DNA of 50,979 nt from a virus (lineage: Duplodnaviria; Heunggongvirae; Uroviricota; Caudoviricetes): the IMG/VR virus record IMGVR_UViG_2526164596_000013, one strand, 5' to 3'. The notes beneath the pieces were generated by a model. The model was not told the origin of the DNA and ran no database searches. It saw only the letters and a program-made list of their open reading frames with translations. Shown here piece by piece: positions 621 through 50,979 of this stretch (its first letter is position 1; each line of letters begins with the position of its first letter). The position numbers were made by a program, and so were the translations under genes.

Positions 621-1194
621 TGTGGGGCGACTGGCCACTCAATATCCGCTGCTACTGTTGTATCAACACGGTTCAGCAACACCCGATACTTTTTCCAGGC
701 TTCCAGCAATGAGGTTTCTTCCTCCGTTGCGATTTCCAGATCTACAGCATCCTGAAGTGGCGCAATATGCTCACTGGCTACCTGCATCAGGCTGTTTTTG
801 TTTCTTCCGCCTCCCGGATCCGGAACAGTTTTTCTGCTTCTGCATCTTTCACCCAGGCTGTGCCGTTCCACTTCTGAAACTCCCCTTCCGGGGATAACCA
901 AGTGGCATTTTCCGGTAACGGACCGAGTTCAGAAATAAATAACGCGTCGCCGGAAGCCACGTCATAAACCGTTTTACCCCGATGATCTTCAACGAGATGC
1001 CACGATGCCTCATCACTGTTGAAAACAGCCACGAAGCCTGCCGGAATATCTGGCGGTGCAATATCGGTACTGTTTGCTGGCAGACCTGTATGAGGCGGAA
1101 TATATGCGTCACCTTCACCAATAAATTCATTAGTTCCGGCCAGCAGATTATAAATTTTTATGGTCCGTGGTTGTTCACTCATTCTGAATGCCAT
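617..1194 (-). pseudogene. tfa: tail fibre assembly protein Tfa, split into two frames by a 1-nt shortfall in a homopolymer (T5 at 795-799 on plus strand)
   Basis: ORF 787-1194 encodes the Tfa N-terminal part ([24 protein letters not shown]...) and ORF 617-901 in another frame encodes the C-terminal part (...[15 protein letters not shown]...[14 protein letters not shown]); join requires one extra A in the acaaaaac run. Confidence 0.7.
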
Positions 1195-10795: not shown

Positions 10796-11124
10796 CAGTT
10801 CACCACCTGCTTAAACTCCGCGCTGAACTCAACGCGCAACATCCCGACCCGCGCAGACCACCCGGCACAGGTCACCTTTATCTGCCGGTATGCATAGGGT
10901 GGCTTCCACAAAAATGCCTTCCAGCCACCGTGCTCTGCCAGGAACGCTTCCAGATGCCGGGCCTCCTCCCGGGTCACGGAAAGCGTCACCCTGTATGTTT
11001 TCAGGTCAGCATTCAGCCCTGCCGCCATACGCTGTGAGTACCCGTCACCAAAACGCACTTCACGCACCGATGGCTGCGAGTTCACCTCCATATCCGGCTT
11101 CACTTTCCAGCGAAAGGTTTTCAT
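10795..11124 (-). CDS. M: minor tail protein M
   Basis: 109-aa ORF, same length and position as lambda M. Confidence 0.75.
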   Translation of the reverse strand: MKTFRWKVKPDMEVNSQPSVREVRFGDGYSQRMAAGLNADLKTYRVTLSVTREEARHLEAFLAEHGGWKAFLWKPPYAYRQIKVTCAGWSARVGMLRVEFSAEFKQVVN

Positions 11125-13693
11125 CCACCGCTCCCTGATAACATACCGCCATCACGCAACTGCAGCCGGAGTTCATCCTGTGCCCCCTTGCGGGCCATCT
11201 CATACACCGCTTTCATCAGCTGCGGCCCTGCCCGCCCGTTGGGGCCGTCGTTCTGAATCACCACGTGATTGTTCTGATTAAAATTAATGCCTTCCGCCCG
11301 CCGCATCTGCGCCGGACTTCCGGCACCGCCGACATAACCACCTTCCGCATAGCCCCGCATCAGGCGGTACAGATTGCCGACACCAATCCGGCTGGTCGCC
11401 TCCTTCGTGAAGACAAACTCCCCGCGATGAACAATCCCCGCAGGTTCATATTTACCCCCGTCCCCGTAAATCCCCCGGTCGCGAAATGGAAGTTCGCCGC
11501 CGCAGCCTGAATGGCTGTACCGCCTGACGCGGATGCGCCGCCACCAACAGCCCCGCCAATGGCGCTGCCGATACTCCCGACAATCCCCACCATTGCCTGC
11601 TTAAGCAGAATTTCTGTCATCATGGACAGCACGGAACGGGTGAAGCTACGCCAGTTCTGTTCACTGCCGGTCAGCATCGCCGCCATATTCTGTGCAATAC
11701 CATCAAAGGTCTGCGTGGCCGCGTTTTTAACCTGCGAAAAACTGTCCGTCGCACTTTCCGCCCACTCGCCCCAGCCGGACTTCATCCCGGACATCCAGCT
11801 TCCACGAAGCTGCTCCTCCGCAGACCAGGTGTTCTTCAGTGCCGATGTGGCCTTCGCCAGCGCAGCCGGATTATCACCGTACACCTCACGAAGGCGCTGC
11901 TCTTCCGACTCCCGCTGCGCCTGACGGTCGGTGAGGCCGCGGGCTTTTGCTCTGATTGCCGCCTGCTTCGCGCTCTGCTGCTGTTCAAACCGCGCCGCCT
12001 GCTGTGCCAGCTCATTCAGCCGTTTCTGGTGTTCAATCTTGTCGCCCAGCTCAGCCAGCTGGCGTTTGTACTCCAGCGTTTCTTTCTCATGGGCCAGCAG
12101 GGATTTTTCCTGCTCAGATAACTGCCGTTTCGTGGCGGCCTCTTTCAGGACCACATACTGATTTTCCGCTTCCCATAAATCCCGGCGCTGCTGGCTGATT
12201 TTCTCATTCACACCGCTGTGTTTTTCCAGCGTCCTGAGCTCGGTTTCAAGCGCCAGCATGGCTGCATGCGCCCGGTCTTCCTGGCGCTCACCGGCAGACA
12301 CCTTCACACCTGACGGCTTTTTCAGCGTCGATTCATAATCCTTTTTTGCCGACGCCATCAGCGTGTTGTAATCCGCCTGCAGGATTTTTCCGTCTTTCAG
12401 GGCCTTATTCAGCTCTTCCTGCCGGGCGGTATATTTATCCAGCGGCGTCTGCAGGCGCTCATACGCCTTCTGCGCCTCTCCGGTATACTTCAGCTGTGAC
12501 GCCTCACGCTCAGCCCGGTCCCTTGCCGCCAGTTCACCGGCTTTTTCCATATCCGACTGCAGCGTGGCCGCTGCCAGACCCAGACGGGCATTTTCCCGGT
12601 CATCCCATGCCCCCTGAAGGTTCGCACGAAAAGAGGAGGTCTTTCCCCGGCGCTGGCTCCGGCTCTGGTACCACTGCCATTTTTTATCCGCCTCATCAAA
12701 TGCCTTCTGCGCACTGGCGAGCATATCCGCTGAGGATTCAGGACGACCGATATCCAGAATGGCATCCCACATCGATTTGAATGCCTTCCCTGTTTTATCC
12801 GCCCAGGTCTCCAGTGTTCCCATGTTTTCTTTCAGGCGACGGGTCTGCTCATCAAAGCCTTTCGTGGCGATATCGTTCGCCGCCTGCAATGCCCCGGCCT
12901 CGTCTCCGGAACGCTGCAGCTGTGCAACATACGCAATCTGCTCTGCCGTCACGTTACGGAACTGGCGCGCCATCGCCATTAGTCCCGACGTCGGGTCAGT
13001 GGTCAGCTTCCCGAAGGCTTCAGCGACTTTATCCACCTCCACACCGGATGCAGAGGAGAAACGCGCCACACTCTGGTTGATGGCATCAAACTGTTCACCA
13101 CCACGCACACCGGCATTCACCAGGGCTGCCAGTGACTCTCTCGCCTGGTTAAACGTCAGCCCTGCTGCCTGCCCGGCTCTTGAGAGAGTCAGCATACGAT
13201 CGGCAGTCAGTCCGGACTGATTACCGGAAAGAACCAGGGTTTTATTAAACGCTGAAAGCGTGGAATCTCCCTGGTACCAGGCGTACACCAGCGCACCTGT
13301 CGCCACCGCCAGCGAGGTGACCCCGACCATCGGCAGGGTGATCGCACCGGCGAGCCCCCTGAACATGGGGATCATCCCGCCGAAGGAGTCCTTCACCTGA
13401 CCGCCCTGTTGCAGCAGGATCAGCCAGGGATTCTGACCACCGGCAAGCTGCGTGGCGATATCCGTAAACTGTGCGGGCAGGGTTCGCATGGCCGCTTTAT
13501 ACTGCCCGACGGAAATCCCGGCTTTTTGTGCAGCCAGCGCCTGGCGGCTCAGGCCCTGTTCAACAGCACTGGCGGTTTTTCTGGCGTCGGTATCCAGACC
13601 TGAAAAATGACGCCTTACCCGGCTCATCTGCTCATCGAAACGGACAGCATCCAGACTCAGGTCAATAACAAGATCACCAACCGGCTGGGACAT
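11121..13693 (-). pseudogene. H: tail tape-measure protein H, split by a 1-nt shortfall in a homopolymer (C5 at 11455-11459 on plus strand)
   Basis: ORF 11360-13693 matches lambda H from MSQPVGDLVIDLSLDA... to ...FHFATGGFTGTG then goes out of frame; ORF 11121-11360 encodes the expected H C-terminus (MRGYAEGGYVGG...QNNHVVIQNDG...); one extra G in the acggggg run restores GKYEPAGIVHRGEFVFTKEATSRIGVGNLYRLMRGYA. Confidence 0.75.
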
Positions 13694-14545
13694 ATCTCAC
13701 ACCTCCCGGAATCCCCGCTGAAGCCATCATTAATGCGGCATCATCCACCATGACATCCGCCACATCCGCAGACGATAAAATATCGCGCCCTCCGTCCCCA
13801 CCGAACCGGACGCCTCCGGCAAGTCCTGCCGCTTTCTGCATCAGCATTTTGTCCTCATCCGGCCTCTCCACCTGCTCTTCCTCATGCCGGGGGACAAGCA
13901 GACTGAAATCAGAGGGATGCATATCCGGATCGCAAAAAAACAGGCTGAGTACAGCGTACGTCAGCCCGGAAAAATGCATATCCAGCTGGGTATCCTGAAA
14001 ATAATGCGTGCGGTAAAAACGGTGCCAGTCGGCATATTCGGTGGATGTCATCCCGGCAAGCATGGCGCGCCAGTCGGGTCTCCCCATCTCACGCGCCAGT
14101 CTGAGGGCAAAGTTCAGCTCGCCGTCGAAGACTTTCCCGCAGAAAAATCATCATCAGTCAGCGTGTTATTTTTCGCCACTTCAGTAATATCAGTATCCGG
14201 ACGAACAGCTTCGATCATCCCGGACAGGCACAACACCACGTCTTCCGCCCGGGCAATGGCATCGGCAGGCCAGGTGGTGAGCACTTCCTGCTCTATCTTC
14301 ATCACGGCCTCATTCATTGACGGTGACTGCGTTTTCTGTGGATGGTTATGCCACAGGGACATCGCCACCAGAAACGCGCCGGTTCTGACGAGATCTTCCA
14401 CGCTTACCTGCAGGTTGCCGCAGGATTCTGCCTGTTCTGCACGCCGTTTCAGGAGGGCAAGATGCTCGATACGCTGCAGCGCAGACAATTCGGAAAGCGT
14501 GACAGACACACCGTTATATTCAAATTGTTCTGTTTTCAGAAACAT
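13674..14545 (-). CDS. GT: tail assembly chaperone GT fusion made by programmed -1 ribosomal frameshift
   Basis: slippery heptamer G GGA AAG (rc of 14132-14138) near end of G; the -1 frame continues open to 13674 (T part), as in lambda G/GT. Confidence 0.65.
14114..14545 (-). CDS. G: tail assembly chaperone G
   Basis: 143-aa ORF upstream of H; ends ...DDDFSAGKSSTAS with slippery GGGAAAG near the 3' end. Confidence 0.75.
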   Translation of the reverse strand: MFLKTEQFEYNGVSVTLSELSALQRIEHLALLKRRAEQAESCGNLQVSVEDLVRTGAFLVAMSLWHNHPQKTQSPSMNEAVMKIEQEVLTTWPADAIARAEDVVLCLSGMIEAVRPDTDITEVAKNNTLTDDDFSAGKSSTAS

Positions 14546-18551: not shown

Positions 18552-20057
18552 TCATGGCATGGCCATGAGCATTTTCACGTCCGCATCACCGTCTTCTGAC
18601 GCCTGTGACACGCCCCCCTGGACCGCTGCCGGTGAATGGTTCGCCATGAAATGTTCAAACATGGCGGCTGTGGATGCAGAGACCGGTTCGGCCTTACCTG
18701 ATCCCGCAGCCAGCACAGCCCGGGCGTTCTCCACGGTCATTCCCGGGCAGGCCGCCAGTTTTTCAGCCTGCGCTTCTGCCCCTTTTGCCTCATCCAGGGC
18801 CATGATCTGATCACGAAGTGAGGGCCCGGCATCCGCCAGTGGTGCAGCCGCCAGGATCGGGCGGGCTTTTTCCACCGTCATCTCCGGCATCGCCGCCAGC
18901 GTTGCTGCCAGTTGTTCACGACCGTTCGCTTCTTCACACGCCATAATGCGATCGGCTTCACTCTGCGCGGATGCCACCGGCTGCTGCGGTGCCGCCGCGG
19001 CCAGAATCGCCCGGGCCTGTTCAACGCTCATGCCCTGTTGCCCTGCCAGCATCGTGGCAAGCTGTTCACGTCCTTTCGCTTCCTGGCATGTCAGGATCCC
19101 CATCACTCGCTGGTTCTCCTGCACGGCGGCTTCCGTTGCAGTTAATTGCGGCATAGTGCCTCCTCTGACATTACTGTTCAGCGCCGTGGCCATCACACTG
19201 ATGGCATCCGACGCATTGATTAATTCATCCGCCAGCCCGGCCTCAATGCCGGACTGACCTTCAAAAACGGCGGCCTCTGTTCCCGTGACCGCATCCACAG
19301 ACAACCCGGTATACATCGCCACTTTTTCGGCAAACATCCGGTGCGCCGCATCAATCCGCTGCTGCATATCCTGGCGAACCTCTGCCGGCAACGCTTCAAA
19401 CTGATTGCCATCCACCTTGTGCGCCCCGGCATAAATCAGCGTGATATCCACACCGGCCTGCGCCAGATGACCGGCATAGCTGACATGGCTCATCATCACG
19501 CCAATGGAGCCGATACGGGATGTCTGGGTAACCAGCCGTCGGGAGCAGGCCGACGCCAGCAGCATGGCTGCAGAACAGGCCGTGTCATTGCACAGTGCCC
19601 AGACCGGCTTCTGCTGACGGAGGCGGTAAATCATGTCAGCGCAGTCAAACGCGCCGGCGGCCTGCCCGCCCGGACTGTCAATGTCCAGCAGTATGCCCCG
19701 CACCTGGCTATCTGCCATTGCCTGCTGAAGACAGGCGACAATGCCGTCATAGCCAGTCATTCCGGAAAATGGCCGCATCCCCCCCAGCCGGTGCACCAGC
19801 GTGCCGGTCACCGGCAGTACCGCAATACCGTTCACCACCCGGTAAACACGGGCCGGTCGTTTACCTCCGGCCATGTACTCGTCCGTTTCAGCCAGCATTC
19901 CGGGAGCATCAAGCTGTACCTGCTGTTGCGGTACCGAAAGACTTGCTGCCCCCATCTCGCGCCCCAGCGCGCAAAAGAAAACCCGCGCATAGGCGGACTC
20001 CAGAAGCAGCGGTTCATTGAATGCTGCTGCAATAATGTGTGAAAGATTACGTCTCAC
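18552..20057 (-). CDS. C: head maturation protease C (S49/ClpP-like) with C-terminal Nu3-like scaffold repeats
   Basis: 501-aa ORF in lambda C/Nu3 position; C-terminal third has three tandem ~36-aa repeats (...EAKGREQLA.MLAGQQGMSVEQARAILAAA...). Confidence 0.8.
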   Translation of the reverse strand: MRRNLSHIIAAAFNEPLLLESAYARVFFCALGREMGAASLSVPQQQVQLDAPGMLAETDEYMAGGKRPARVYRVVNGIAVLPVTGTLVHRLGGMRPFSGMTGYDGIVACLQQAMADSQVRGILLDIDSPGGQAAGAFDCADMIYRLRQQKPVWALCNDTACSAAMLLASACSRRLVTQTSRIGSIGVMMSHVSYAGHLAQAGVDITLIYAGAHKVDGNQFEALPAEVRQDMQQRIDAAHRMFAEKVAMYTGLSVDAVTGTEAAVFEGQSGIEAGLADELINASDAISVMATALNSNVRGGTMPQLTATEAAVQENQRVMGILTCQEAKGREQLATMLAGQQGMSVEQARAILAAAAPQQPVASAQSEADRIMACEEANGREQLAATLAAMPEMTVEKARPILAAAPLADAGPSLRDQIMALDEAKGAEAQAEKLAACPGMTVENARAVLAAGSGKAEPVSASTAAMFEHFMANHSPAAVQGGVSQASEDGDADVKMLMAMP

Positions 20058-21639: not shown

Positions 21640-21842
21640 AACCTCACTCCCAGCGGACGACGGCGACGGCGGGTTGTCCCCAGTACCGACTCCGCATCAT
21701 TGATCGCCCGGTTAAGCTCATCCAGAGAAGCTGCCGTATATTCAATTCTGCGACCATCTTTCTGGACAGACACCACCCGTTTACCGGTTAATAAATCAAG
21801 GCGCGCCTGACGCAGCGCCTGCAGTTCAGCGACTGTAACCAT
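21636..21842 (-). CDS. W: head-tail joining protein W
   Basis: 68-aa ORF, lambda W length and position. Confidence 0.75.
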   Translation of the reverse strand: MVTVAELQALRQARLDLLTGKRVVSVQKDGRRIEYTAASLDELNRAINDAESVLGTTRRRRRPLGVRL

Positions 21843-23753
21843 TCACTCCTCCGGACAGCTTCGCTGCCAGTTCTTTAAGGGTTGGCCGGGTCGTCTCTTC
21901 TTCCCGGGATTTTGCCAGTACAGCCAGATCAAGCTGCCAGCGTTGCACGGACACACGTAATGCCGCGTAGGCATACACCAGGCAGTCCAGCGCTTCGTTA
22001 CGCCGCTTTTTGTTATCCCACAGCAGACGCATCTTTCCTTTTTCCCACTTCTCCACAAGCTCTTCCGCGACCAGTTGCTGCGCCTCTGTCTGCGAAAAAA
22101 TCTCCGGATCATCAGGAAAACGGATGGCATACGACGTGGCTTCATCCGCAGGCGTGGGCTCGGCTTTCATACGGGCATAGAGAATTTCTTTTGCGGTGTC
22201 CGTCCCCACTTCACACAGATAAACGCCCCGCTGATTGCGGGTTTTCGGCATGGTGATCACCGGCTTGCCATAGACAGACGCGCCTTTTACCGGCAGCACA
22301 CGGAAAACACCGTGTTTTTTGACCTCTGGTAGACGATTTCACCATCGATCCCCCCGGTGTCCCAGCAGACACGGGAAATGGTCATTTCGGTGCCATCCGC
22401 ATGGCGGTATTTTTTGTTGATCGCCGCATCCACACGTAACAGCGTCTCTTCCTCATCGGGACGTCCCATAATGATGATTTTATCCACCAGAAAGGCTTCC
22501 TCTCCCGGAGCCCATCCCCAGACATACATCTCAAAACGGTTTCGCTGCGAGTCAATGCCCGCCGTCAGATAAACCACCCGGGCAGGCACCGCCGCCGTGT
22601 AATGAACAACCTTATCCATCAGTACCTGGTGATCGAGTTTTTCGCCCACGGCCTCTTCCCAGGTCTCGCCCAGCGTGGTGTTCACAAAGGTTTTCAGGCC
22701 GTTGGGATCTTTCAGTGCATCCAGCCAGTCATAGACAATCTGTACCCAGGTGGTGAACGGACTGTACGCCGTCCAGATATGGAATGTGATGGAGCGCGGC
22801 GGCGGAATTTCATTATCCGCGGCGCTGAAAAACGTCAGACCGTCGCGGGTCCACATCCCCGTGTTTTCGCAGATCCACCGCCCGTTGCTCTGGTCAAGCT
22901 CAGACTGATGGATCACGCAGCCATGATGTTCACAGAGGTAGAAAACGCTTTCGGGGCTGTCCTTCTCCCATTTAAGGCCAAAAGGCGTGGACTCATCGCC
23001 AAATTTCAGATACTGCGCCTCCCCACAGTGCGGGCAGGGCACATAAAAACGCATGAAATGCGCCGACTCGTTGGCCGCTTTTTCGATCTGGCAGGAGCCT
23101 TTTATTTTAGGCGTCGAGCCGCGAATGGATTTTGGCCATACCGAGCCCTCAATACGCTTATCCCCCAGCAGGGTTGGCGAGCCCTCTTTTTCGACATCCG
23201 GCTCGAACGAGGAAAGTTCGTCATAGCAGACCACGTCCACGGATTTTTCACGGTAGTTTTTTGCTGCCGCACCACCCAGGCACCAGAAGCCCACCCCCGA
23301 TGAAAAGCGTTTCAGCGTAAGAGTATTGTCACGATGTTTACGACCCAGCCACGGGGAAAGATCTTTCAGGCATGGCACGTCCCGAATCGTCGCCTCCACG
23401 TGAGACTTCATAAAATCTTCAGCGGCAGAATCCGTGGGCTGAAAAAGCAGACTGTTTCGGGATTTATGCTCAATAAAATACCCGGCGACTCCCAGCAACA
23501 TCTTTGTATAGCCAACACGGGCAGATTTAATCAGATTAACAGTGCGGATCTGATCATTCCCCATACTGTTCATGATGGCGATCTGGAACGGCAGCGTTTT
23601 CCATTCGCCGTCACCGTATGAGGATTCTTTCGGCAGATAATAATACTGGTCAGCCCATTCAACTGCCGTCATCGGTACAACCCTGACCAGAGGCTGCAGC
23701 GCAACCGAAACGGCGGCCACCATATTATTCAGTTGTTGCTCTGATATATTCAT
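21826..23753 (-). pseudogene. A: terminase large subunit A, split by a 1-nt shortfall in a homopolymer (T6 at 22315-22320 on plus strand)
   Basis: ORF 22287-23810 matches lambda gpA from MNISEQQ (ATG at 23753) to ...IVYQRSK then goes out of frame; ORF 21826-22299 continues the gpA C-terminus (VKGASVYGKPV...WDNKKRRNEALDCLVYAYAALR); tcaaaaaacacggtg needs one more A to read SKKHGVFRVLPVKG. Confidence 0.8.
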
Positions 23754-24231
23754 CCAGCAAATCCGGTAATTTATCCCCTGCCCGCGCACACTGATTTGCG
23801 CCCTTTGCAATAAGGGTTTTCAGATGGTCAATATGACGTGGCGTTAAATCCGGGAACTGTCGCTGCATGGATAACGGAATGGAATCAAGCGTACTGGACA
23901 ATGCCATCGCCAGTTTGCTGAGGGCGAAAACGCAGAAGTCTGAATCGATGAGCTTACCTTCGGTTACCTGATTTTTAAGTTTTTGAGCTACAGCCTGTTC
24001 TTCTGTCAGTTCAGCTCTGGCCCGAAGCAGCCTTTCCTCCAGTTCTCCCCCGTCATCAGGTGTTCTCTGATTGTGTTGTCGCCGCTCGCGATCTATCTCC
24101 AGTACAGTTTTAACGTCATATAAAACTTCCCTCCCCCGACGTTCAACAGGAGGAACGCCCCATTTATCAAATGCCTGAACAGAGATACCGATGGAGGAGG
24201 CCATATCACTTTTATTCAATAAAAAGGCCAT
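23725..24231 (-). CDS. Nu1: terminase small subunit Nu1
   Basis: product ...MASSIGISVQAFDKWGVPPVERRGREVLYD...FCVFALSKLAMALSSTLDSIPLSMQRQFPDLTPRHIDHLK resembles lambda Nu1; start chosen at ATG 24231 (alternative 24249); 3' end overlaps A start. Confidence 0.75.
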   Translation of the reverse strand: MAFLLNKSDMASSIGISVQAFDKWGVPPVERRGREVLYDVKTVLEIDRERRQHNQRTPDDGGELEERLLRARAELTEEQAVAQKLKNQVTEGKLIDSDFCVFALSKLAMALSSTLDSIPLSMQRQFPDLTPRHIDHLKTLIAKGANQCARAGDKLPDLLDEYIRATTE

Positions 24232-28591: not shown

Positions 28592-30445
28592 TTATGATGA
28601 TGCCGGTGCATTTATCTCCAGCACCAGACTTTCTATCTCAACGCCATACGTTGCATTTTTGGTAATATCCGTCAGCGTCAGTGCATTTAGTCCCACTGCC
28701 AGACTGTCTTTTATGGCCTGGAATGCCGGGCCAGCCACTCCATTCAGTTTCGGAGTAACCGTGGCACTGCCGGCGGTGAACACCAGTTCCAGCGTTTGCC
28801 AGTCATTACTGTAATTCCCGAACTCGCCCAACTTTGTGTTTCCTGCTTTCTTGTGATGCATCAGATTCAGTTTGCCGTCTGTGGTCTGGGTGAAGAACGA
28901 CATCAGGAACGGGTTACCAGTCCCGGTCATCGCCACGACGTCAGGTAACGCTACATCGGTATACAGATAAATTCCCAGGCCGAACTGGTTGTTGGTCAGT
29001 GCGCCTGACAGTCGAAACTTACAGCTCAGTCTGCCACCCCGTGTCAGCAGGGAGACTGCGTCATCCACCGGGCGCGTCAGGGACCAGGCTTTATTGCTCT
29101 GCTTGGTGATCTTAAATACACCCTCTGACAACTGAATTCCGCCATTCTTAATGCTCCAGCCCTGCGCAGCAGCGTCTCCGGCTGTCGGCAACAGGGAGAT
29201 TGTGCGTACGGATGCATCTTCAGACGGCCCCGATGGCGTGTCGCCGCCGGGCGAGGGTTTGATTTCCGGTGCCTTACCACTGATGAAGGCTGAGGTGCGC
29301 CCGGCTGCGTTCAGAATAGCGGTTGCCATACGATCCGGAATAATGCTCCTGCGCGCCCATGAACTGAAATGTGTCGGGCGGTTTGATGATACCTGGTTTC
29401 CATTCGTTCTCGATGCCGCACCGTAATATCCTGATGCCGGAATATCCGGATCTTCTGCCGGTGCGTTAGTGGCGGTATTGACGCCGTTACCGTCTGTCAT
29501 GAAGGGCACAAAATAAACGCCCTCACTCTCCCTGTTTTTATACCCGCCGTACACGGTGTCGTACTGGGTAGCGTATGTATTTTTCCAGTAATACGTCGTG
29601 TCACCACAAATCCACGGCACATTTACAGCACTGCCACCATGACACTGCGCGTTAAACACAGTGAGGTCAGCACGAAACTGCTTCAGCATGGCTGTAAACA
29701 GCGCAGGTTGCTGTGCGTAGGTGGCGGCGTTCATGTCAAACTCTCCCTGCATCCAGCACACCGCCAGCAACACATTTTTCGGGTTCTTCTGTAATGCAGC
29801 TTTAGTGCGCGCAATCAGGTCCTGATATAACGGTTTACCCACACCCCAGCGTGCCGAATCCTGGCTGGCCCCCGCGTCCGCACTGAATGTCCCCTCCGCG
29901 CCCTTGGTGAATGCCGAACCACCACGACAGCATGGTACCAGCAGGATCCCCGCGTTATTCGGGATATACGGGAGCAGTTTTTTGGCAATATGTAAGCCCT
30001 GGCCGACACAGCCGTACTGCCCTTTGCTCAGGTCTGCCTTCGGATGATTCAGCGTACTCATATCCTGCACATCATGCAGACAGTGGTCAGCCGGGATGAT
30101 GTCGTTATACGTACAACTCTCTCCACCCGGAGTTACCGTGCTGCGGCGCGCCAGCTGTTTAATGCGCGGATCCGGAGCATCGTAAGAATCCGGTAACGGA
30201 AGCCCTTCACCGTAGGCCATGCCGTTGGACTGTCCGGCAAGCACAACCACGTAGAACCAGTCCGGCTCAGATGAAGGGCCGACCTGTGGATCTCCTTCAA
30301 TAGCCACCGCCTGCATCAGTGTGTACGGCGTAATGGCAACCGGTCCGCCATATGGCTGCCAGCCCTCTTTCAGTTTGTGTGTCAGCTTTTCCGCAAGGTC
30401 TGACGGCGACGCCGCCCTGACAACATCATAGTGTTTAAATGCCAT
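28592..30445 (-). CDS. NanS-p-like sialate O-acetylesterase (N-terminal DUF1737-like region + SASA esterase), Stx-phage-type moron
   Basis: 617-aa ORF starting [38 protein letters not shown]..., GGSAF/GQSN-type esterase motifs; same position (between tRNA cluster and S) as the large esterase ORF of Stx phages; GGGAGGA SD. Confidence 0.7.
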
Positions 30446-30892
30446 GAATCCTCCCGGCCGGGATAATATTGTGAGTAAAATGAGGAGCGGGCTGAAGTCC
30501 GGAAGTTACAGGACAATGGCAGAAGAGAGACAATAGCCCGCAATACGAAAAAGGCCGCGCTATTGCGCAGAGTGATTACTGTCGGATATTATTCGCCAGC
30601 TGAAATATTACTTCACGTTTTGTTGTTTATTCCTTGCCGCCCGCGTCTCCCTGCGCGGGATTTTTTTGTCCATAAGAAAGCCCCTCCGGAGAGGGCTGGA
30701 GAGTGGCGCTATGTGCCATTGCATGGTGCCGGGTGCCTCCCGGTGAATTCAGTACCAGCACCTGAATCCGCGATTATCCCATATACCTACTCGCTGATTG
30801 CCCCTCCGCACAGGGGGATTCACCATGCCAGTTTCTTTTAACAAACTCCCCGCAAAACAGACAACTGTCAACCGTCTGAATTGTGAGACATT

Positions 30893-30920
30893 TAAAAAAA
30901 AGGCCCGCAAAAGCGAGCCA
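30893..30920 (-). terminator. rho-independent terminator immediately 3' of tRNA-Arg(UCU)
   Basis: minus strand hairpin ggctcgc-tttt-gcgggcc followed by TTTTTTTT. Confidence 0.5.
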
Positions 30921-30933
30921 GGGAAAATAAGTG

Positions 30934-31010
30934 TGGCGCGTTGTACTGGATTCGAACCAGTGACCGATTGCTTAGAAGGCAATTGCTCTGTCCGGCTGAG
31001 CTAACAACGC
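30934..31010 (-). tRNA. argO: tRNA-Arg (anticodon UCU)
   Basis: rc gives GCGTTGTTAGCTCAGCCGGACAGAGCAATTGCCTTCTAAGCAATCGGTCACTGGTTCGAATCCAGTACAACGCGCCA; cloverleaf with 7-bp acceptor, anticodon loop CTTCTAA, encoded CCA. Confidence 0.85.
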
Positions 31011-31023
31011 AGGGTACAGATAA

Positions 31024-31100
31024 TGGACCGCCATCGAGGACTCGAACCCCGCGCAACCAGCTTCGAAGGCTGGCGCTCTATCCTGATGAGCTAATGGCGG
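31024..31100 (-). tRNA. argN: tRNA-Arg (anticodon UCG)
   Basis: rc gives CCGCCATTAGCTCATCAGGATAGAGCGCCAGCCTTCGAAGCTGGTTGCGCGGGGTTCGAGTCCTCGATGGCGGTCCA; anticodon loop CTTCGAA; acceptor stem CCGCCAT/ATGGCGG; encoded CCA. Confidence 0.75.
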
Positions 31101-31107
31101 TATGTGA

Positions 31108-31179
31108 TGGTGGCCCTTGCTGGATTTGAACCAGCGACCTGGCGATTATGAGTCGCTCTCACCACTGAGCTAAAGGGCC
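31108..31179 (-). tRNA. ileZ: tRNA-like gene with CAU anticodon (Ile2/Met-type), atypically short
   Basis: rc gives GGCCCTTTAGCTCAGTGGTGAGAGCGACTCATAATCGCCAGGTCGCTGGTTCAAATCCAGCAAGGGCCACCA (72 nt); good acceptor and T arms, loop CTCATAA, but the anticodon stem 5' side appears about 4 nt short. Confidence 0.55.
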
Positions 31180-31340
31180 GGGAGCCGCATAATAACGACG
31201 CGTAATTAATTCTTCAATATCATCCGTTCTGGCTGACTAAATCCTGTACTTCCCGAACCGTCTGCTCAAAACATTCAGTCTCCAGCTCAACGCCAATTGC
31301 ACGACGCCCGAGCGCCAGTGCTGCTTTGACGCTACGGACA

Positions 31341-31371
31341 TAAAAAAGCCAGCCACTGGGGGAGGCTGGCG
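31341..31371 (-). terminator. candidate intrinsic terminator on minus strand upstream of the tRNA cluster
   Basis: minus strand hairpin gccagcc-tcccccagt-ggctggc followed by TTTTTT. Confidence 0.4.
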
Positions 31372-31550
31372 AAACTCGTAGAGCAAAAGTGTTGTTACAC
31401 TAACTTCGTCACAGGGTTATCCTGCAATACTCAAAATACACAATATTTACAAAACTAATAGTATACAAGGCGATCTTTAAGATTTTGTTATAAATTATTG
31501 CCTTTCTCCTCTTTCCATGAGCTTTCTGGGTAGCCACAGAATTCCGGGTA

Positions 31551-31577
31551 CAGAAAAACCCGCTCAGCGGCGGGTTT
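31551..31577 (-). terminator. second candidate intrinsic terminator on minus strand
   Basis: hairpin aacccgc-cgctga-gcgggtt followed by TTTTTCT on minus strand. Confidence 0.3.
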
Positions 31578-32004
31578 AAGCTGTGTGACGAAGTAACCAC
31601 TCTTAACAGCATAACCAATTTTTTACGTACGTAAACCACTAAATGATATTTGCGAGAATGCTACCGAGTATTGAAAACACCACTACAAATACATAAGCAA
31701 ATCTCAACAAATAACCAACAAATAATTTCCAGTGTTATTTTTAGCCTGTTTAAATTGAACCTTCAAATTATAGAGCACTTATAAATAACAGCCGTTAATA
31801 TAAATTGGCTAATAGATTTATTTTTATTCAGCCAAGAGCCATGAATAGGATTCGATAGAAAAAAGTTCAGATAAAAATAGAGATCTACTTCACAAATCAA
31901 ACGAGAAACCAAAACTTACATCTTGAAATAATCACATTGATTAGATGAATATTTATCGCGCAGTGACATCATTTTTTAATAATAGTTCAAAAAAAGGGCT
32001 CACG

Positions 32005-33087
32005 ATGAAAAAATTAACAGTGGCAATTTCTGCTGTAGCTGCATCAGTACTGATGGCGATGTCTGCTCAGGCAGCTGAAATTTATAATAAAGACAGTAAC
32101 AAGCTGGATCTGTACGGGAAAGTTAATGCTAAGCACTATTTCTCCTCTAATGATGCAGATGATGGTGATACTACTTATGCCCGTCTTGGCTTCAAAGGTG
32201 AAACCCAAATCAACGATCAACTGACTGGTTTCGGTCAGTGGGAATATGAATTCAAAGGCAACCGCGCTGAATCTCAAGGTTCCTCCAAAGATAAAACCCG
32301 TCTTGCCTTCGCTGGCCTGAAATTCGGTGACTACGGCTCAATCGATTACGGCCGTAACTACGGTGTAGCATACGACATCGGTGCGTGGACTGACGTTCTG
32401 CCAGAATTCGGTGGCGATACCTGGACCCAAACAGATGTGTTCATGACTGGTCGCACCACTGGTGTTGCAACTTATCGTAACAACGACTTCTTTGGTCTGG
32501 TTGATGGTCTGAACTTTGCTGCTCAGTATCAGGGTAAAAATGACCGCACTGACGTAACTGAAGCTAATGGTGATGGTTTCGGTTTCTCCACTACTTATGA
32601 GTATGAAGGATTCGGTGTAGGTGCAACCTATGCTAAATCTGACCGCACTAATAATCAGGTTATCTACGGTAACAACAGCCTGAATGCATCTGGTCAAAAT
32701 GCTGAAGTATGGGCAGCTGGTCTGAAATATGATGCGAACAACATCTATCTGGCTACCACCTATTCTGAAACCCAGAACATGACTGTTTTTGGTAATAACC
32801 ATATTGCCAACAAAGCACAAAACTTCGAAGTAGTTGCACAATATCAGTTCGACTTCGGTCTGCGTCCGTCCGTTGCTTACCTGCAATCTAAAGGAAAAGA
32901 CTTGGGTGCGTGGGGTGATCAGGACCTGGTTGAATATATTGATGTAGGTGCAACCTATTACTTCAACAAAAATATGTCCACTTTTGTTGATTACAAAATC
33001 AACCTGATTGATAAGAGCGATTTCACGAAAGCATCTGGCGTTGCTACCGATGATATCGTTGCTGTAGGTATGGTTTACCAGTTCTAA
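32005..33087 (+). CDS. outer-membrane general porin (OmpC/NmpC/Lc-like), phage-borne moron
   Basis: signal peptide [23 protein letters not shown] then [17 protein letters not shown]... and C-terminal ...VAVGMVYQF typical of enterobacterial trimeric porins; opposite strand to the late genes, between Q and the lysis genes as nmpC is in DLP12. Confidence 0.85.
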
Positions 33088-33102
33088 TTTGATTACTAAA
33101 AG

Positions 33103-33275: not shown

Positions 33276-33659
33276 TTAATTAGAGTTATTAACAACGATA
33301 TCCATCTCTAACCGGATATCTAATGCCATTAACATCCCTTCAATTATGCCCTCAGCCTTCTGTAACCTTTTCCCGATATAACCATCAGAGCAGCAATGCT
33401 TACCTGCCAGTGACATGAATGTCATACCGACTACATAATAATCTACTAATAAATCGTGCAAATCGCTGTTGTTCTTTTTCAGACGGGCCATGCACCCGCA
33501 AATAATCATCGCGTCATCGTCACAACATTGCGGGCGAGATTTTACTTTTGAAGTAATTAATCCCTTAAAACCGGCGGCAATGGACGACCAGGTCACATCT
33601 TCATGATTATTTGCCGCCCACGCTCCCCAGCGTTCGAGAACCATCTGAATATCACGCAT
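33276..33659 (-). CDS. Q: late-gene antiterminator Q (QuuD-type)
   Basis: 127 aa from [24 protein letters not shown]... with Cys-rich putative zinc-binding segment ([20 protein letters not shown]); matches the DLP12 QuuD family as recalled. Confidence 0.8.
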
Positions 33660-33676
33660 CAACTTTCTCCACAAAA

Positions 33677-43407: not shown

Positions 43408-43620
43408 ATGCATCAGAAAACAGCAGAACACGAACAAACCAGAGTATTGCTGACCATCAAAAACGGGAAAGTAATATTCATTCGCCATGTTCATGACGAT
43501 GAACTTGTAGGAACTCTTTCAACATTCCTGTTTATTGCAGAAAGGGCAGGATATGACGTTATTGCACCAGCAGATGAAGATGAAGATGAAGATGAAGATG
43601 AAGATGAAGATGAGGAATAA
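43408..43620 (+). CDS. hypothetical protein with poly(Glu-Asp) C-terminal tail
   Basis: ATG 43408 with GGGAG SD; ends ...APADEDEDEDEDEDEDEE encoded by a hexanucleotide repeat. Confidence 0.5.
   Translation: MHQKTAEHEQTRVLLTIKNGKVIFIRHVHDDELVGTLSTFLFIAERAGYDVIAPADEDEDEDEDEDEDEE
43573..43614 (+). repeat. hexanucleotide microsatellite (GATGAA)6+GATGAG
   Basis: seven tandem 6-bp units at the 3' end of ORF 43408-43620. Confidence 0.9.
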
Positions 43621-43856
43621 ATATCATGCAATACGATGAATTCCAGGCTGAAGCAACAGCCAATGGTATACGAACTGGCAGTATGACGATTGATTATCAC
43701 GACGCCATACGTCGTCTGGATGCCGGAGAATTCGATACTCCTAATGTGCGAGGTTTACGTATCCTTCAGTGTCTGGCGCAAGCCGACGAAGCAGGATTAC
43801 TGGGTAAACTTCCGGTTGAGATGAAGGTTGCTCAGTGGCGATGGTTGGATTTGCCC

Positions 43857-44762
43857 CTATATTTCCAGACATCTGTTATCACTTAACCCATTACAAGCCC
43901 GCTGCCGCAGATATTCCCGTGGCGAGCGATAACCCAGCGCACTATGCGGATGCCATTCGTTATAATGCTCGAACGCCTCTGCAAGGTTCTTTGCTGCCGT
44001 TAACCCGTCTGGTTTGGGCATGATACTGATGTAGTCACGCTTTATCGTTTTCACGAAGCTCTCTGCTATTCCGTTACTCTCCGGACTCCGCACCGCCGTG
44101 TTCTTCGGTTCAAGTCCCAACATCCGGGCGAACTGGCGTGTTTCATTAGCCCGGTAGCATGAACCATTATCCGTCAGCCACTCCACTGGAGACGACGGAA
44201 GATCGTTGCCGAAGCGGCGTTCCACCGCTCCCAGCATGACGTCCTGTACTGTTTCACTGTTGAAGCCGCCGGTAGTCACCGCCCAGTGCAGTGCCTCACG
44301 ATCACAGCAGTCCAGCGCGAACGTGACACGCAGTCTCTCTCCGTTATCACAGCAGAACTCGAACCCGTCAGAGCACCATCGCTGATTGCTTTCTTTCACG
44401 GCCACTCTGCCTGTATGTGCCCGTTTCGATGGCGGTACAGCAGGTTTTCGCTCAAGCAACAGCGCATTCTGGCGCATGATCCGGTAAACACGTTTGGCAT
44501 TGATCGCAGGCATACCATCAAGTTCTGCCTGTCTGCGAAGCAGCGCCCATACCCGACGATAACCATACGTGGGCAGCTCTCCGATAACATGGTGTATACG
44601 GAGAAGCACATCCGTATCATCAGTGTGACGACTGCGGCGGCTATCCATCCAGTCATCGGTTCGTCTGAGAATGACGTGCAACTGCGCACGCGACACCCGG
44701 AGACAACGGCTGACTAAGCTTACTCCCCATCCCCGGGCAATAAGGGCGCGTGCGCTATCCAC
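43857..44762 (-). CDS. insD: IS2 transposase OrfB (DDE integrase core)
   Basis: 301-aa ORF matching IS2 InsD as recalled. Confidence 0.85.
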
Positions 44763-45085
44763 TTTTTTGCCCGTCCATATTCAACGGCTTCTTTGAGGAG
44801 TTCATTTTCCATCGTTTTCTTGCCGAGCAGGCGCTGGAGTTCTTTAATCTGCTTCATGGCGGCAACAAGTTCAGAGGCAGGAACAACCTGTTCTCCGGCG
44901 GCGACAGCGGTAAGACTTCCTTCCTGGTATTGCTTACGCCAGAGAAATAACTGGCTGGCTGCTACACCATGTTGCCGGGCAACGAGAGAGACCGTCATCC
45001 CCGGTTCAAAGCTCTGCTGAACAATTGCGATCTTTTCCTGTGTGGTACGCCGTCTGCGTTTCTCCGGCCCTAAGACATCAATCAT
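44720..45085 (-). CDS. insC: IS2 OrfA (HTH transposase subunit)
   Basis: [56 protein letters not shown]... matches IS2 InsC as recalled; overlaps orfB as expected for a -1 frameshift fusion. Confidence 0.85.
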
Positions 45086-45553
45086 CTGTTCTCCAATGAC
45101 TAGTCTAAAAACTAGTATTAAGACTATCACTTATTTAAGTGATACTGGTTGTCTGGAGATTCAGGGGGCCAGTCTAATGGTTGTATGTGACGACATTCAT
45201 CAACGAAGAAGAAGACAAGAACGGCACAATTGATATCTTGAATGAACACGGAACAACTGAACACGCCGTGGTATATAACGGGATGTATGGGTTTATGACG
45301 ATATATCCCGGCCCCATTCGATTTGCCTTACAACAGTATATTGAATGGAATTTAATTCAAAAATACGGCGAAGCTGAAGGAATGGGAAGAGCGCTGTTTC
45401 TTTATCAGAAAATGCTCACTACTTCCCCTGATAAAGGTTTCATTCTTTCAGATATGGGTCGAGAAGGGCTTGAAATCCTTCTGGATGAAATTATTAACGA
45501 AATGAATACTCATGGCATGCAATCCGAAACAGATATTAAGTAAAAGGGACCAC

Positions 45554-45775: not shown

Positions 45776-45818
45776 TAGTGATGTTCCGACAGGAGAGAGC
45801 AGAGAAAGGGGAATCAGC

Positions 45819-46478
45819 ATGAAATTTTCCAAATTTTCTGAGTTGGTGAATCGTATTTTGTCCAACAACCACAGCCATCGTCGCGATATGGATGTAACGA
45901 TCGTTGTTCATTCGCCTGGCAGCATTGGTTCAACACCCTCAGTTGAAGTTCAGTCAATTCACGCTGGTTTTGATTGGGATTCCGGGAAAGTGCTGATTTT
46001 CCCAGCACAGCCACTGACCACTCTAACACCAGAACAGATTACTGATATTACTGATAGTGTGCGCAAAGGTCAGTCCTGGCACGCATATCAGGAATACAAG
46101 AAGCATAAAGAGCAGTTGGAAAAATTATCGATTGAACTTGATGCCGCAAAACAGCGCATTGCAGAGCTGGAGGGTAATTTCACGGCGCTGGCAGCGGAGA
46201 ATGCGGGGCTAAAGGCGATATGTGATGACCGTCGCAGGTTCATCATGAATGGGGTGCAGATGGGTTATATCAAGGTGCCAGCAGCGGAAACAGATCCAGA
46301 CCTTGAGACAATTCGCATTGCTATATCACCACAAAAGCCCATTCCAGCCACCGATGCTTTCCTGGCTGAAGTACGGGCGCAGGGCGTGGAGATGTTTGCG
46401 GAGTGTGCATACACGCTTGAACATCATGATCACGCAGTAGCCTTCGCCGCTGAGCTTCGCAAAGGAGGCAACCAGTGA
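45819..46478 (+). CDS. Ead/Ea22-like protein, paralog 1
   Basis: ATG 45819 with AAAGGGGA SD; coiled-coil segment ...ALAAENAGLKA... and C-terminus ...PATDAFLAEVRAQGVE...AAELRKGGNQ shared with the next gene. Confidence 0.5.
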   Translation: MKFSKFSELVNRILSNNHSHRRDMDVTIVVHSPGSIGSTPSVEVQSIHAGFDWDSGKVLIFPAQPLTTLTPEQITDITDSVRKGQSWHAYQEYKKHKEQLEKLSIELDAAKQRIAELEGNFTALAAENAGLKAICDDRRRFIMNGVQMGYIKVPAAETDPDLETIRIAISPQKPIPATDAFLAEVRAQGVEMFAECAYTLEHHDHAVAFAAELRKGGNQ

Positions 46479-49665: not shown

Positions 49666-50979
49666 ATGGATAAAGTCAAATATCCAACAGGCGTCGAAAA
49701 CCACGGCGGCACATTACGCATCTGGTTTAATTTTAAAGGTAAACGTGTCAGGGAAAATCTTGGTGTCCCTGACACTGCCAAGAACAGGAAGATCGCCGGG
49801 GAACTGCGGACATCAGTATGTTTTGCCATCCGCACAGGAAGCTTTGATTATGCTGCACAGTTCCCTGACTCCCCCAACCTTCAGGCTTTTGGGGTAAGTA
49901 AAAAAGAAATTACGGTGAAGGAACTTGAAGAAAAGTGGCTGGATCTGAAACGAATGGAAATCTCTGCAAATGCATTCAATCGCTATGAATCCGTTGCAAG
50001 AACGATGGTTCCGAAAATTGGAGGCAGTAGACTGGTATCATCGGTAACCAAAGAGGAATTGCTGTATATCAGGAAAGATTTGCTTACCGGGTATCAGAAT
50101 TCAACGAAAAACAAAGCAGCAGCAAAAGGACGGAGCGTCGTTACTGTAAATTATTACATGACGACAATCGCTGGAATGTTTCAGTTTGCTGCAGATCACG
50201 GTTACTTAGAAGCAAATCCCTTCCAGGGAATTAAGCCTCTTAAAAGAGCCAGGGCAGAGCCAGATCCGCTAACTCGTGACGAATTTATTCGCCTGATAGA
50301 TGCTTGCCGACATCAGCAGACGAAAAACCTGTGGTCATTGGCTGTGTACACAGGAATGCGTCACGGTGAACTGGTCTCCCTGGCCTGGGAAGATATCGAT
50401 CTGAAGGCAGGAACAATTACCATCAGGCGCAATTATACGAAACTTGGTGAGTTCACTCTACCGAAAACTGAAGCAAGCACAAACAGGGTTGTGCACCTTA
50501 TCCAGCCCGCTATCAGTGTCCTGAAAAATCAGGCTGAAATGACAAGACTGGGTAAGCAGTACAACATCAAGGTGCAACTACGTGAATATGGACGTTCAGT
50601 GAACCATGAATGTACTTTCGTGTTTAACCCTCAAGTGGTTAGAAAAAGCGAACAGGTAGGTTTTGTCTACAAAGTCGATTCTGTAGGTGACTCATGGGAA
50701 ACAGCCATTAAGCGTGCAGGGATCAGGCATCGAAAGGCATACCAGTCACGACACACTTATGCGTGCTGGTCATTATCTGCCGGAGCAAACCCAAGCTTCA
50801 TTGCCAGCCAGATGGGCCATGCAAGTGCCCAGATGGTATTCAATGTATACGGAGCATGGATGACTGACAGCAATGCAGAACAGATCGCAATGCTGAATCA
50901 GAAGCTGACAGATTATGTCCCAATGATGCCCCATAGTCACCAAAGTGACACCAGAGGCTTATTAAAATCAGTAAGTTAA
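49666..50979 (+). CDS. int: tyrosine integrase (phage integrase family)
   Basis: 437-aa ORF with GGAGG SD; C-terminal catalytic residues in ...RHTYACWSLSAGANPSFIASQMGHASAQMVFNVYGAWM...; stop at the last bases of the window. Confidence 0.9.
   Translation: MDKVKYPTGVENHGGTLRIWFNFKGKRVRENLGVPDTAKNRKIAGELRTSVCFAIRTGSFDYAAQFPDSPNLQAFGVSKKEITVKELEEKWLDLKRMEISANAFNRYESVARTMVPKIGGSRLVSSVTKEELLYIRKDLLTGYQNSTKNKAAAKGRSVVTVNYYMTTIAGMFQFAADHGYLEANPFQGIKPLKRARAEPDPLTRDEFIRLIDACRHQQTKNLWSLAVYTGMRHGELVSLAWEDIDLKAGTITIRRNYTKLGEFTLPKTEASTNRVVHLIQPAISVLKNQAEMTRLGKQYNIKVQLREYGRSVNHECTFVFNPQVVRKSEQVGFVYKVDSVGDSWETAIKRAGIRHRKAYQSRHTYACWSLSAGANPSFIASQMGHASAQMVFNVYGAWMTDSNAEQIAMLNQKLTDYVPMMPHSHQSDTRGLLKSVS

What the first reader, a model, noticed from the sequence alone, without database searches (positions are those of the whole stretch)
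21826..23753. Terminase large subunit split by a one-base shortfall in a T6/A6 run
Translation of both frames shows the gpA sequence continuing across 22315-22320; tcaaaaaacacggtg needs one additional A to read ...QRSKKHGVFRVLPVKGASVYGKPV. The same pattern occurs in H and tfa. Three independent -1 homopolymer events in essential genes suggest systematic homopolymer under-calling in the assembly rather than biology, but a decaying, non-inducible prophage is the alternative.
Basis: seen in the sequence. Interest (0 to 1): 0.6.

Follow-up and report, generated by a model that had tools for sequence, protein, structure and literature searches.

The report
Terminase gene split by sequencing error
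The prophage's DNA-packaging enzyme gene really is broken in this sequence by one missing A in a run of seven, but an independent assembly of what is evidently the same strain's raw reads has the full run, so the break is almost certainly a base-calling error in an old draft genome.

Summary
The lambda-type terminase large subunit gene (gpA, minus strand, 23753 to 21826) is split at a T6/A6 run (22315-22320), and one extra A restores a 642-aa protein. H (C5, 11455-11459) and tfa (T5, 795-799) have the same kind of defect. I found a fourth in a non-coding hairpin (G3, 30693-30695).

The window is contig AIHP01000019.1 of draft GCA_000250515.2. Against the near-identical prophage in complete genome CP077477 (O111:H21 strain 15A), it differs by these four one-base homopolymer deletions, two substitutions and two IS events.

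Key test: the window's private allele of gene C occurs in only one other place in the collection, a Logan assembly of sequencing run SRR099150. That contig matches the window at every base over 2.9 kb except that it has A7, with gpA intact at 642 aa. None of the 30 listed complete genomes with this context has the short run, and none of the 387 matches it exactly.

The gpA split is therefore most likely a consensus under-call (about 0.8), and the H split probably is too. The tfa shortfall is shared by three sibling drafts, so it is either inherited or a systematic error. This is not a biological novelty; interest is low.

The parts
22287..23753 (-). Upstream piece of the terminase large subunit gene gpA (488 aa, then an out-of-frame tail ending in a stop).
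   Evidence: GpA_ATPase at residues 49-293; GpA_nuclease profile positions 3-160 of 294.
22315..22320 (-). The T6 (+) / A6 (coding strand) run that is one base short. Relatives have 7.
   Evidence: gap against 15A; A7 in the SRR099150 contig.
21826..22299 (-). Downstream piece of gpA in the -1 frame (157-aa ORF from an internal GTG).
   Evidence: GpA_nuclease profile positions 171-287. It is called as a separate gene in the source contig.
23725..24231 (-). Terminase small subunit gene (Nu1-type), overlapping the start of gpA.
   Evidence: 15A annotation, mapped to window coordinates; PF07471 Phage_Nu1, 168 aa.
11455..11459 (-). C5 (+) / G5 (coding) run in the tape-measure gene H, one base short of the C6 in relatives. 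It splits H into 777 aa (11360-13693) plus 79 aa (11121-11360).
   Evidence: The sibling AIHQ and other assemblies have an intact 857-aa H.
795..799 (-). T5 (+) / A5 (coding) run in tfa, one base short of the 6 in relatives. It splits Tfa into 135 aa (787-1194) plus 56 aa (617-787).
   Evidence: It is shared by drafts AIHO, AIHP and AIHQ only.
30693..30695 (+). Non-coding G3 run, one base short of the G4 in 15A. The missing G spoils an otherwise perfect hairpin, AGCCCCTC-CGGA-GAGGGGCT.
19997..19997 (-). Private substitution in gene C (Ser instead of Pro at codon 21, judged by my reading of the frame). It served as the strain marker that links the window to run SRR099150.
   Evidence: A in the window, G in 15A; this exact C product is on record only in AIHP01000019.1 and SRR099150_321.

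Best explanation
The window is a lambdoid prophage integrated next to yecE, in the 2012-era draft contig AIHP01000019.1 of an O111:H21-type E. coli. From the order of the accession numbers it is probably strain DEC15C, but I did not verify this.

The terminase large subunit gene is a normal lambda-type gpA, with an N-terminal ATPase and a C-terminal endonuclease. The one-base shortfall in its A7 run is most likely a consensus base-calling error: a homopolymer under-call of the kind typical of flow-based (454) reads. It is not a mutation in the bacterium. The shortfalls in H and in the non-coding hairpin are probably the same kind of error.

Shown here:
- the position and nature of the break;
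- the intact allele in the closest relatives;
- the intact allele in an independent assembly of a read set that carries this strain's private marker.

Inferred:
- that SRR099150 is this strain's own read set;
- that the chemistry was 454.
For: 1. Against the near-identical prophage of complete genome CP077477, the 51-kb window differs by four one-base deletions, no insertions, only two substitutions and two IS events. All four deletions are in homopolymers. Placement in homopolymers by chance has P of about 1e-7.

2. One of the four lies in non-coding DNA, so the process is blind to gene content.

3. The window's private gene-C protein is on record in only two contigs of the whole collection: the source contig and Logan contig SRR099150_321. 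In that contig gpA is 642 aa and the run is A7. Over 2890 aligned bases, the extra A is the only difference from the window.

4. The sibling draft AIHQ lacks both the gpA split and the H split.

5. No complete E. coli genome among the 387 that match this 69-nt context matches it exactly. The 30 listed are all 69/70 with one gap.

6. In other assemblies, the same downstream ORF arises from independent -1 events at A7, at a G6 run 35 nt upstream, and at a CC. The short C5 run of H is found in a complete genome (strain 103605) in which all five annotated tail genes of the stretch fetched are flagged frameshifted. The downstream 79-aa H fragment, which is called separately only when H is broken, turns up mostly in assemblies whose tail genes are split into many pieces. 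These runs are therefore habitual miscall sites.

7. The lab I believe produced these drafts (from memory) described its contemporaneous pipeline as 454 Titanium plus Celera (PMC3491183). Homopolymer indels are the well-known weakness of 454 (abstract of PMC3534400).
Against: - No reads were inspected.
- The link between SRR099150 and this strain rests on one private substitution. The run could come from a very close but different isolate.
- If the strain carried a second prophage with the same 60-nt context, a k-mer assembler could have taken the A7 path from it. The base rate is low: 398 places in 387 records. The contig also shows no other paralogue-type differences.
- The sequencing chemistry of this particular draft was not documented here.
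- The tfa shortfall is reproduced in three separate drafts. Random consensus error does not predict that, and it shows at least one site may be genuine.
- The strain does carry real changes: an IS2 insertion with a 5-bp target duplication and two SNPs.
Confidence: 0.8

Rival explanations
1. A genuine -1 replication-slippage mutation in the A7 run has inactivated the terminase endonuclease domain. On this view the prophage is a decaying, non-packaging remnant in this isolate.
For: - Homopolymers are also the natural hot-spots for slippage.
- The prophage shows real private changes: IS2 at 43846-45176 with target duplication ATGGT and a substitution in gene C.
- The tfa shortfall is shared by three sibling drafts, which would fit an inherited pseudogene.
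- Ten kilobases of host flank in the sibling drafts show no broken genes, so the drafts are not riddled with errors.
Against: - The only other sequence carrying this strain's private marker has A7 and an intact gpA.
- The sibling AIHQ and the complete genome 15A are intact.
- Four indels against two substitutions, all of them deletions, is far from the indel-to-substitution ratio of about 1:10 seen in wild-type E. coli mutation accumulation (my own knowledge).
- One of the events is in non-coding DNA.
Confidence: 0.12
2. The culture that was sequenced was a mixture of A6 and A7 cells, because the tract is unstable. Two assemblers then picked different alleles from the same reads.
For: Two assemblies that share the private marker disagree only at this run. 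The A7 run and the neighbouring G6 run are recurrently shortened in unrelated assemblies.
Against: - Flow-based read noise would produce the same disagreement without any real heterogeneity.
- Seven-base tracts slip rarely in repair-proficient cells (my own knowledge).
- Many of the recurrent cases lie in assemblies with numerous broken genes, which points to error.
Confidence: 0.05
3. The shortened run is real and is functionally bypassed. The deletion creates A_AAA_AAC, a canonical -1 slippery heptamer, so ribosomes (or RNA polymerase slippage) could still make some full-length gpA, as a leaky or regulated terminase.
For: Read directly from the sequence, a -1 shift on tcA_AAA_AACacg restores the gpA frame. 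The prophage uses a genuine programmed -1 site elsewhere, G_GGA_AAG between G and T at 14132-14138.
Against: - The arrangement is not conserved. Relatives are in frame with A7.
- The 78 nt downstream fold no better than shuffled sequence, z = -0.16.
- The allele itself is probably not real.
Confidence: 0.02

Closest known systems
Bacteriophage lambda terminase large subunit gpA (Pfam GpA_ATPase PF05876 plus GpA_nuclease PF20454)
   Same: - Both domains are present in the same order.
- The gene order Nu1-A-W-portal-protease-D-E is the same.
- The repaired length of 642 aa is close to lambda's 641 (lambda's length is from my own knowledge).
- It is 97% identical to the intact gene of the isolated Escherichia phage PhiR12_1.
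   Different: As written in the window, the reading frame is broken in the middle of the nuclease domain by one missing base.
Homopolymer-length consensus errors of flow-based (454 / Ion Torrent) and long-read assemblies
   Same: - The differences are single-base, confined to homopolymers, and all under-calls.
- They hit coding and non-coding DNA alike.
- The gpA one is not reproduced in another assembly carrying the same strain marker.
- The same runs are broken in other visibly error-prone assemblies.
   Different: The tfa site is reproduced in three drafts of the same project, so for that site the error would have to be systematic.
Defective lambdoid prophages of pathogenic E. coli, such as the frameshifted morphogenesis genes catalogued for O157:H7 Sakai prophages (my own knowledge)
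   Same: It is a lambdoid prophage at a typical integration site (yecE), with an IS insertion and remnant genes.
   Different: For gpA the frameshift is not inherited by clonal relatives and is not reproduced in the independent assembly.
Programmed -1 frameshift of lambda G/G-T
   Same: A slippery heptamer of the X_XXY_YYZ type is present at the gpA break.
   Different: There is no conservation of the shifted arrangement and no downstream structure. The genuine G/G-T site sits elsewhere, at 14132-14138.

Membership tests
Lambda-type terminase large subunit gpA | N-terminal GpA_ATPase domain | tested here: met
   PF05876, E = 1e-54, residues 49-293, profile positions 5-247 of 247.
Lambda-type terminase large subunit gpA | C-terminal GpA endonuclease domain in one polypeptide with the ATPase | tested here: not met
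   In the window as written the domain is divided, with profile positions 3-160 in one ORF and 171-287 in the next. It is met in the 15A allele (positions 3-286 in one stretch) and in the SRR099150 contig (642 aa).
Lambda-type terminase large subunit gpA | Gene order Nu1 - A - W - portal | tested here: met
   Phage_Nu1, the GpA domains, gpW and Phage_portal_2 in that order.
Assembly or base-calling artefact (homopolymer under-call) | The difference from trusted relatives is a one-base length change inside a homopolymer | tested here: met
   four of four indels. P of about 1e-7 under uniform placement.
Assembly or base-calling artefact (homopolymer under-call) | Not reproduced when the same strain is assembled or sequenced independently | tested here: met
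   For gpA: the SRR099150 contig shares the private gene-C allele and has A7. That it is the same strain is inferred. This could not be reached for H or tfa.
Assembly or base-calling artefact (homopolymer under-call) | Individual reads disagree on the run length | not testable with these tools
   No read access.
Assembly or base-calling artefact (homopolymer under-call) | The data came from a chemistry prone to homopolymer errors | tested here: inconclusive
   The project paper is not held. The contemporaneous pipeline of the lab I believe made these drafts (from memory) was 454 Titanium plus Celera.
Genuine prophage pseudogene | The allele is shared by clonal relatives or reproduced in independent data | tested here: not met
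   Not met for gpA and H: AIHQ, 15A and other assemblies are intact. Met for tfa only within the three sibling drafts.
Programmed -1 ribosomal frameshift | Slippery heptamer, a conserved out-of-frame arrangement, and a downstream stimulatory structure | tested here: not met
   The heptamer A_AAA_AAC is present. The arrangement is not conserved. The downstream fold has z = -0.16.

The most novel reading that the evidence does not exclude
The A6 allele is real, and the A-run (with the neighbouring G6 run) acts as a slippage-prone switch that turns the prophage's packaging enzyme off and on. Alternatively, the A_AAA_AAC heptamer allows low-level -1 frameshifting that keeps a trickle of functional terminase.
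Probability: 0.03. Interest if true: 0.45.

Novelty: not a real feature. Interest (0 to 1): 0.07.

Why it matters
The value here is mainly as a caution. Anyone scoring this prophage as defective or non-inducible, or counting terminase, tape-measure and tail-fibre-assembly pseudogenes in the AIH* draft genomes, would be misled by single-base homopolymer miscalls.

It also shows a practical check. A private allele can be used to find an independent assembly of the same strain's reads, and that assembly can then be read at the suspect run.

If the split were real, it would only be one more decaying lambdoid prophage, which is common in pathogenic E. coli.

Tried and rejected
- Looking up the 488-aa upstream gpA product found nothing, because the source's gene call uses another start (478 aa).
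- The integrase look-up was useless. The protein is in 11,746 blocks and the source contig was not reached, so no host flank of the AIHP contig itself could be examined.
- The IS2-disrupted gene fragment is not on record.
- No complete genome shares the IS2 junction, so there is no closer complete relative than 15A.
- The 79-aa H fragment is too widespread for the look-up to reach SRR099150.
- The 56-aa Tfa fragment found only the three sibling drafts plus contigs that start there or carry a different 7-nt deletion. The state of H and tfa in SRR099150 therefore remains unknown.
- The project paper (PMC3370608) is not held, and searches for AIHP, DEC15C or SRR099150 gave nothing usable.
- The 69-nt context searches cannot by percentage alone tell a one-gap match from a one-mismatch match. 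I rely on the absence of any exact match and on the 70-nt spans of the listed hits.
- The programmed-frameshift idea was considered and rejected.
- Several fetched loci never reached the scripting machine. As a result, L028 beyond 2.9 kb and the AIHQ locus were compared only through gene lengths and exact-protein look-ups.

Full report
**What is in the sequence**

The late-gene half of the window is a lambda-type morphogenesis operon on the minus strand. It runs Nu1, A, W, portal, protease/scaffold C, D, E, FI, FII, Z, U, V, G/T, H, M, L, K, I, J, lom, a tail-fibre gene and tfa.

gpA starts at 23753 and reads in frame to ...IVYQRSK. It then runs into NTVFSVCCR and a stop at 22287. The rest of the protein (LPVKGASVYGKPV...) continues in the -1 frame down to 21826. 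The junction is a run of six T on the + strand at 22315-22320, and one more base restores the frame.

Pfam puts the ATPase domain and endonuclease-profile positions 3-160 in the first piece and positions 171-287 in the second. The break is therefore inside the nuclease domain.

The other two sites it named are also correct:
- H has C5 at 11455-11459 and is cut into 777 + 79 aa.
- tfa has T5 at 795-799 and is cut into 135 + 56 aa.

**Comparison with the closest complete genome**

A search of 5,426 complete E. coli genomes found the same prophage in O111:H21 strain 15A (CP077477). It sits at the same chromosomal site, between yecE and yecD/aspS. There the terminase gene is an uninterrupted 1929 nt, H is 2574 nt and tfa is 579 nt.

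A base-by-base comparison over the whole window gives the following differences:
- Four one-base gaps, all deletions in the window and all in homopolymers: T6 to T5 in tfa, C6 to C5 in H, T7 to T6 in gpA, and G4 to G3 at 30693.
- Two substitutions, at 19997 and 50037.
- An IS2 in the window at 43846-45176, 1331 bp with a 5-bp target duplication ATGGT.
- An IS903B in 15A, with a 378-nt loss.

The fourth shortfall is in non-coding DNA. It spoils a hairpin that is perfect in 15A.

Runs of six or more hold 0.76% of the bases, yet took three of the four deletions, giving P of about 1e-7 under uniform placement. Homopolymer specificity alone does not separate slippage mutation from miscalling. Four deletions, no insertions and only two substitutions is, however, an unusual spectrum for real divergence (my own knowledge of E. 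coli mutation-accumulation spectra).

**Source of the window**

The truncated H product is on record in a single contig, AIHP01000019.1 of GCA_000250515.2, a WGS draft.

From the accession series and the taxonomy entries DEC15A-E, this is probably one of the DEC15 strains of the diarrheagenic E. coli collection. By my memory of the accession order it is DEC15C. I could not read the project paper. A paper from the lab I believe made these drafts (from memory), published in the same year, describes 454 Titanium reads assembled with Celera (PMC3491183). The weakness of 454 at long homopolymers is well documented (PMC3534400 abstract). The chemistry of this draft is therefore likely but not shown.

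**The key test**

The substitution at 19997 changes gene C, and the resulting 501-aa protein is private. In a collection of 153 billion gene positions it is on record in only two contigs. One is the source contig. The other is contig 321 of the Logan assembly of sequencing run SRR099150.

That 9.4-kb contig covers Nu1 to V. In it gpA is called as one 642-aa protein and the run is A7. Over 2,890 aligned bases the extra A is the only difference from the window. All the other genes on the contig that can be compared with the window have the same lengths.

The simplest reading is that SRR099150 is this strain's own read set, and that an independent assembler recovered seven A's from it.

Two loopholes remain:
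- The run could come from a very close sister isolate.
- A k-mer assembler could in principle have taken the A7 path from a paralogous prophage.

The second is unlikely. Only 398 places occur in the 387 records that have this 69-nt context, and the contig shows no other paralogue-type differences.

**Sibling assemblies and other genomes**

- The downstream 157-aa gpA ORF is on record in only one contig in the 0.2-1 Mb size class, the source. The 463-kb AIHQ contig that carries the same prophage therefore does not have the split. AIHQ also has an intact 857-aa H.
- Five other assemblies with the identical J protein and the same host flank (yecD, aspS) have intact H and Tfa.
- Among complete genomes, none of the 387 that match the gpA context matches it exactly, and the 30 listed hits each span 70 nt. 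None of 3,691 has the short tfa run in exact context. Four of 641 have the short H run. In the one of those four that I inspected, all five annotated tail genes of the stretch are flagged frameshifted.
- In unrelated assemblies the same downstream gpA ORF is produced by independent one-base losses at the A7 run, at a G6 run 35 nt upstream, or at a CC.
- The 79-aa H fragment turns up in 247 blocks. The ones read are mostly assemblies with tail genes split into many pieces.

These runs are habitual miscall sites.

**The tfa site is different**

The truncated Tfa products are on record only in the three sibling drafts AIHO, AIHP and AIHQ. The alignment shows the same A5 in all three and A6 in 15A. 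AIHO is otherwise identical to the window over 3.8 kb. Over 4.6 kb reaching into aspS, it differs from 15A only at this run.

A random consensus error would not recur in three separate assemblies. This site is therefore either a real mutation inherited within the clone or a reproducible, context-dependent miscall of that project's pipeline. I could not reach the tfa region of any read-level assembly, so I leave it open at roughly even odds.

By my own knowledge, tfa is dispensable for plaque formation in laboratory lambda, so calling it essential overstates the case.

**Alternatives for gpA**

- *A genuine private slippage mutation (about 0.12).* It is contradicted by the SRR099150 contig.
- *A mixed A6/A7 culture (about 0.05).* Without reads it cannot be separated from read noise.
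- *A bypassed frameshift (about 0.02).* The deletion does create the slippery heptamer A_AAA_AAC, and a -1 shift there would restore the frame. However, the arrangement is not conserved in any relative, and the downstream 78 nt fold no better than shuffles (z = -0.16). The genuine programmed site of this operon, G_GGA_AAG between G and T, is present and separate.

**Verdict**

- The gene is an ordinary lambda-type terminase large subunit, 97% identical to that of the isolated phage PhiR12_1.
- The H and non-coding shortfalls probably are too.
- The tfa shortfall is unresolved.
- Nothing here is new biology, and interest is low.

Noticed in passing
window 43846-45176: A complete IS2 (1331 bp; InsC/InsD-type ORFs at 44720-45130 and 43857-44762 on the minus strand) with a 5-bp target duplication ATGGT. 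It interrupts a 193-aa hypothetical early-region gene. It is absent from strain 15A, and no complete E. coli genome shares the junction, so this is a real, strain-private insertion.
   Followed up: yes
window 45787-46164, against NZ_CP077477.1 at about 100680-101736: Strain 15A has an IS903B here and lacks 378 nt that the window retains. The two prophages therefore differ by two independent IS events despite near-identity elsewhere.
   Followed up: partly
window 30679-30697: A fourth one-base homopolymer shortfall (G3 versus G4), in non-coding DNA just after a terminator-like GC stem plus T7. The missing G breaks a perfect 8-bp hairpin, AGCCCCTC/GAGGGGCT, seen in 15A.
   Followed up: partly
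window 22353-22358 (C6 on +, G6 on the coding strand), 35 nt upstream of the A-run: In four unrelated assemblies (L018, L019, L022, L026), gpA is broken by loss of one G from this run instead, giving the same downstream 157-aa ORF. It is a second habitual miscall or slippage site in the same gene.
   Followed up: partly
window 795-799; loci L015, L016, L040: The short tfa run is identical in three sibling drafts (AIHO, AIHP, AIHQ) and in no other assembly found. It is either an inherited clone-specific pseudogene or a reproducible pipeline error.
   Followed up: partly
window 14132-14138 (minus strand): The canonical lambda G/G-T programmed -1 slippery heptamer G_GGA_AAG lies 18 nt before the G stop codon, with the T ORF (13674-14087) following. 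This is a genuine frameshift site and should not be confused with the defects.
   Followed up: partly
window about 30900-33100: Between the antiterminator Q gene (33276-33674) and the lysis genes lie three tRNA genes (Arg, Arg, Ile, by 15A's annotation), a methyltransferase remnant and a 380-aa OmpC-type porin gene (31945-33087). A SASA-family esterase gene (28592-30445) lies further downstream, just before the holin gene. No Shiga-toxin gene is present at the position where Stx phages carry one.
   Followed up: no
window 43408-43620: A small ORF ending in a long alternating Asp-Glu tract (…DEDEDEDEDEDEDEE), encoded by a GAT/GAA-rich repeat just upstream of the IS2-disrupted gene.
   Followed up: no
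window 1 and 50979: The window starts exactly at the start codon of a serine acetyltransferase cargo gene (1-573) and ends exactly at the end of the integrase gene (49666-50979). It therefore looks like a predicted prophage interval cut at gene boundaries.
   Followed up: no
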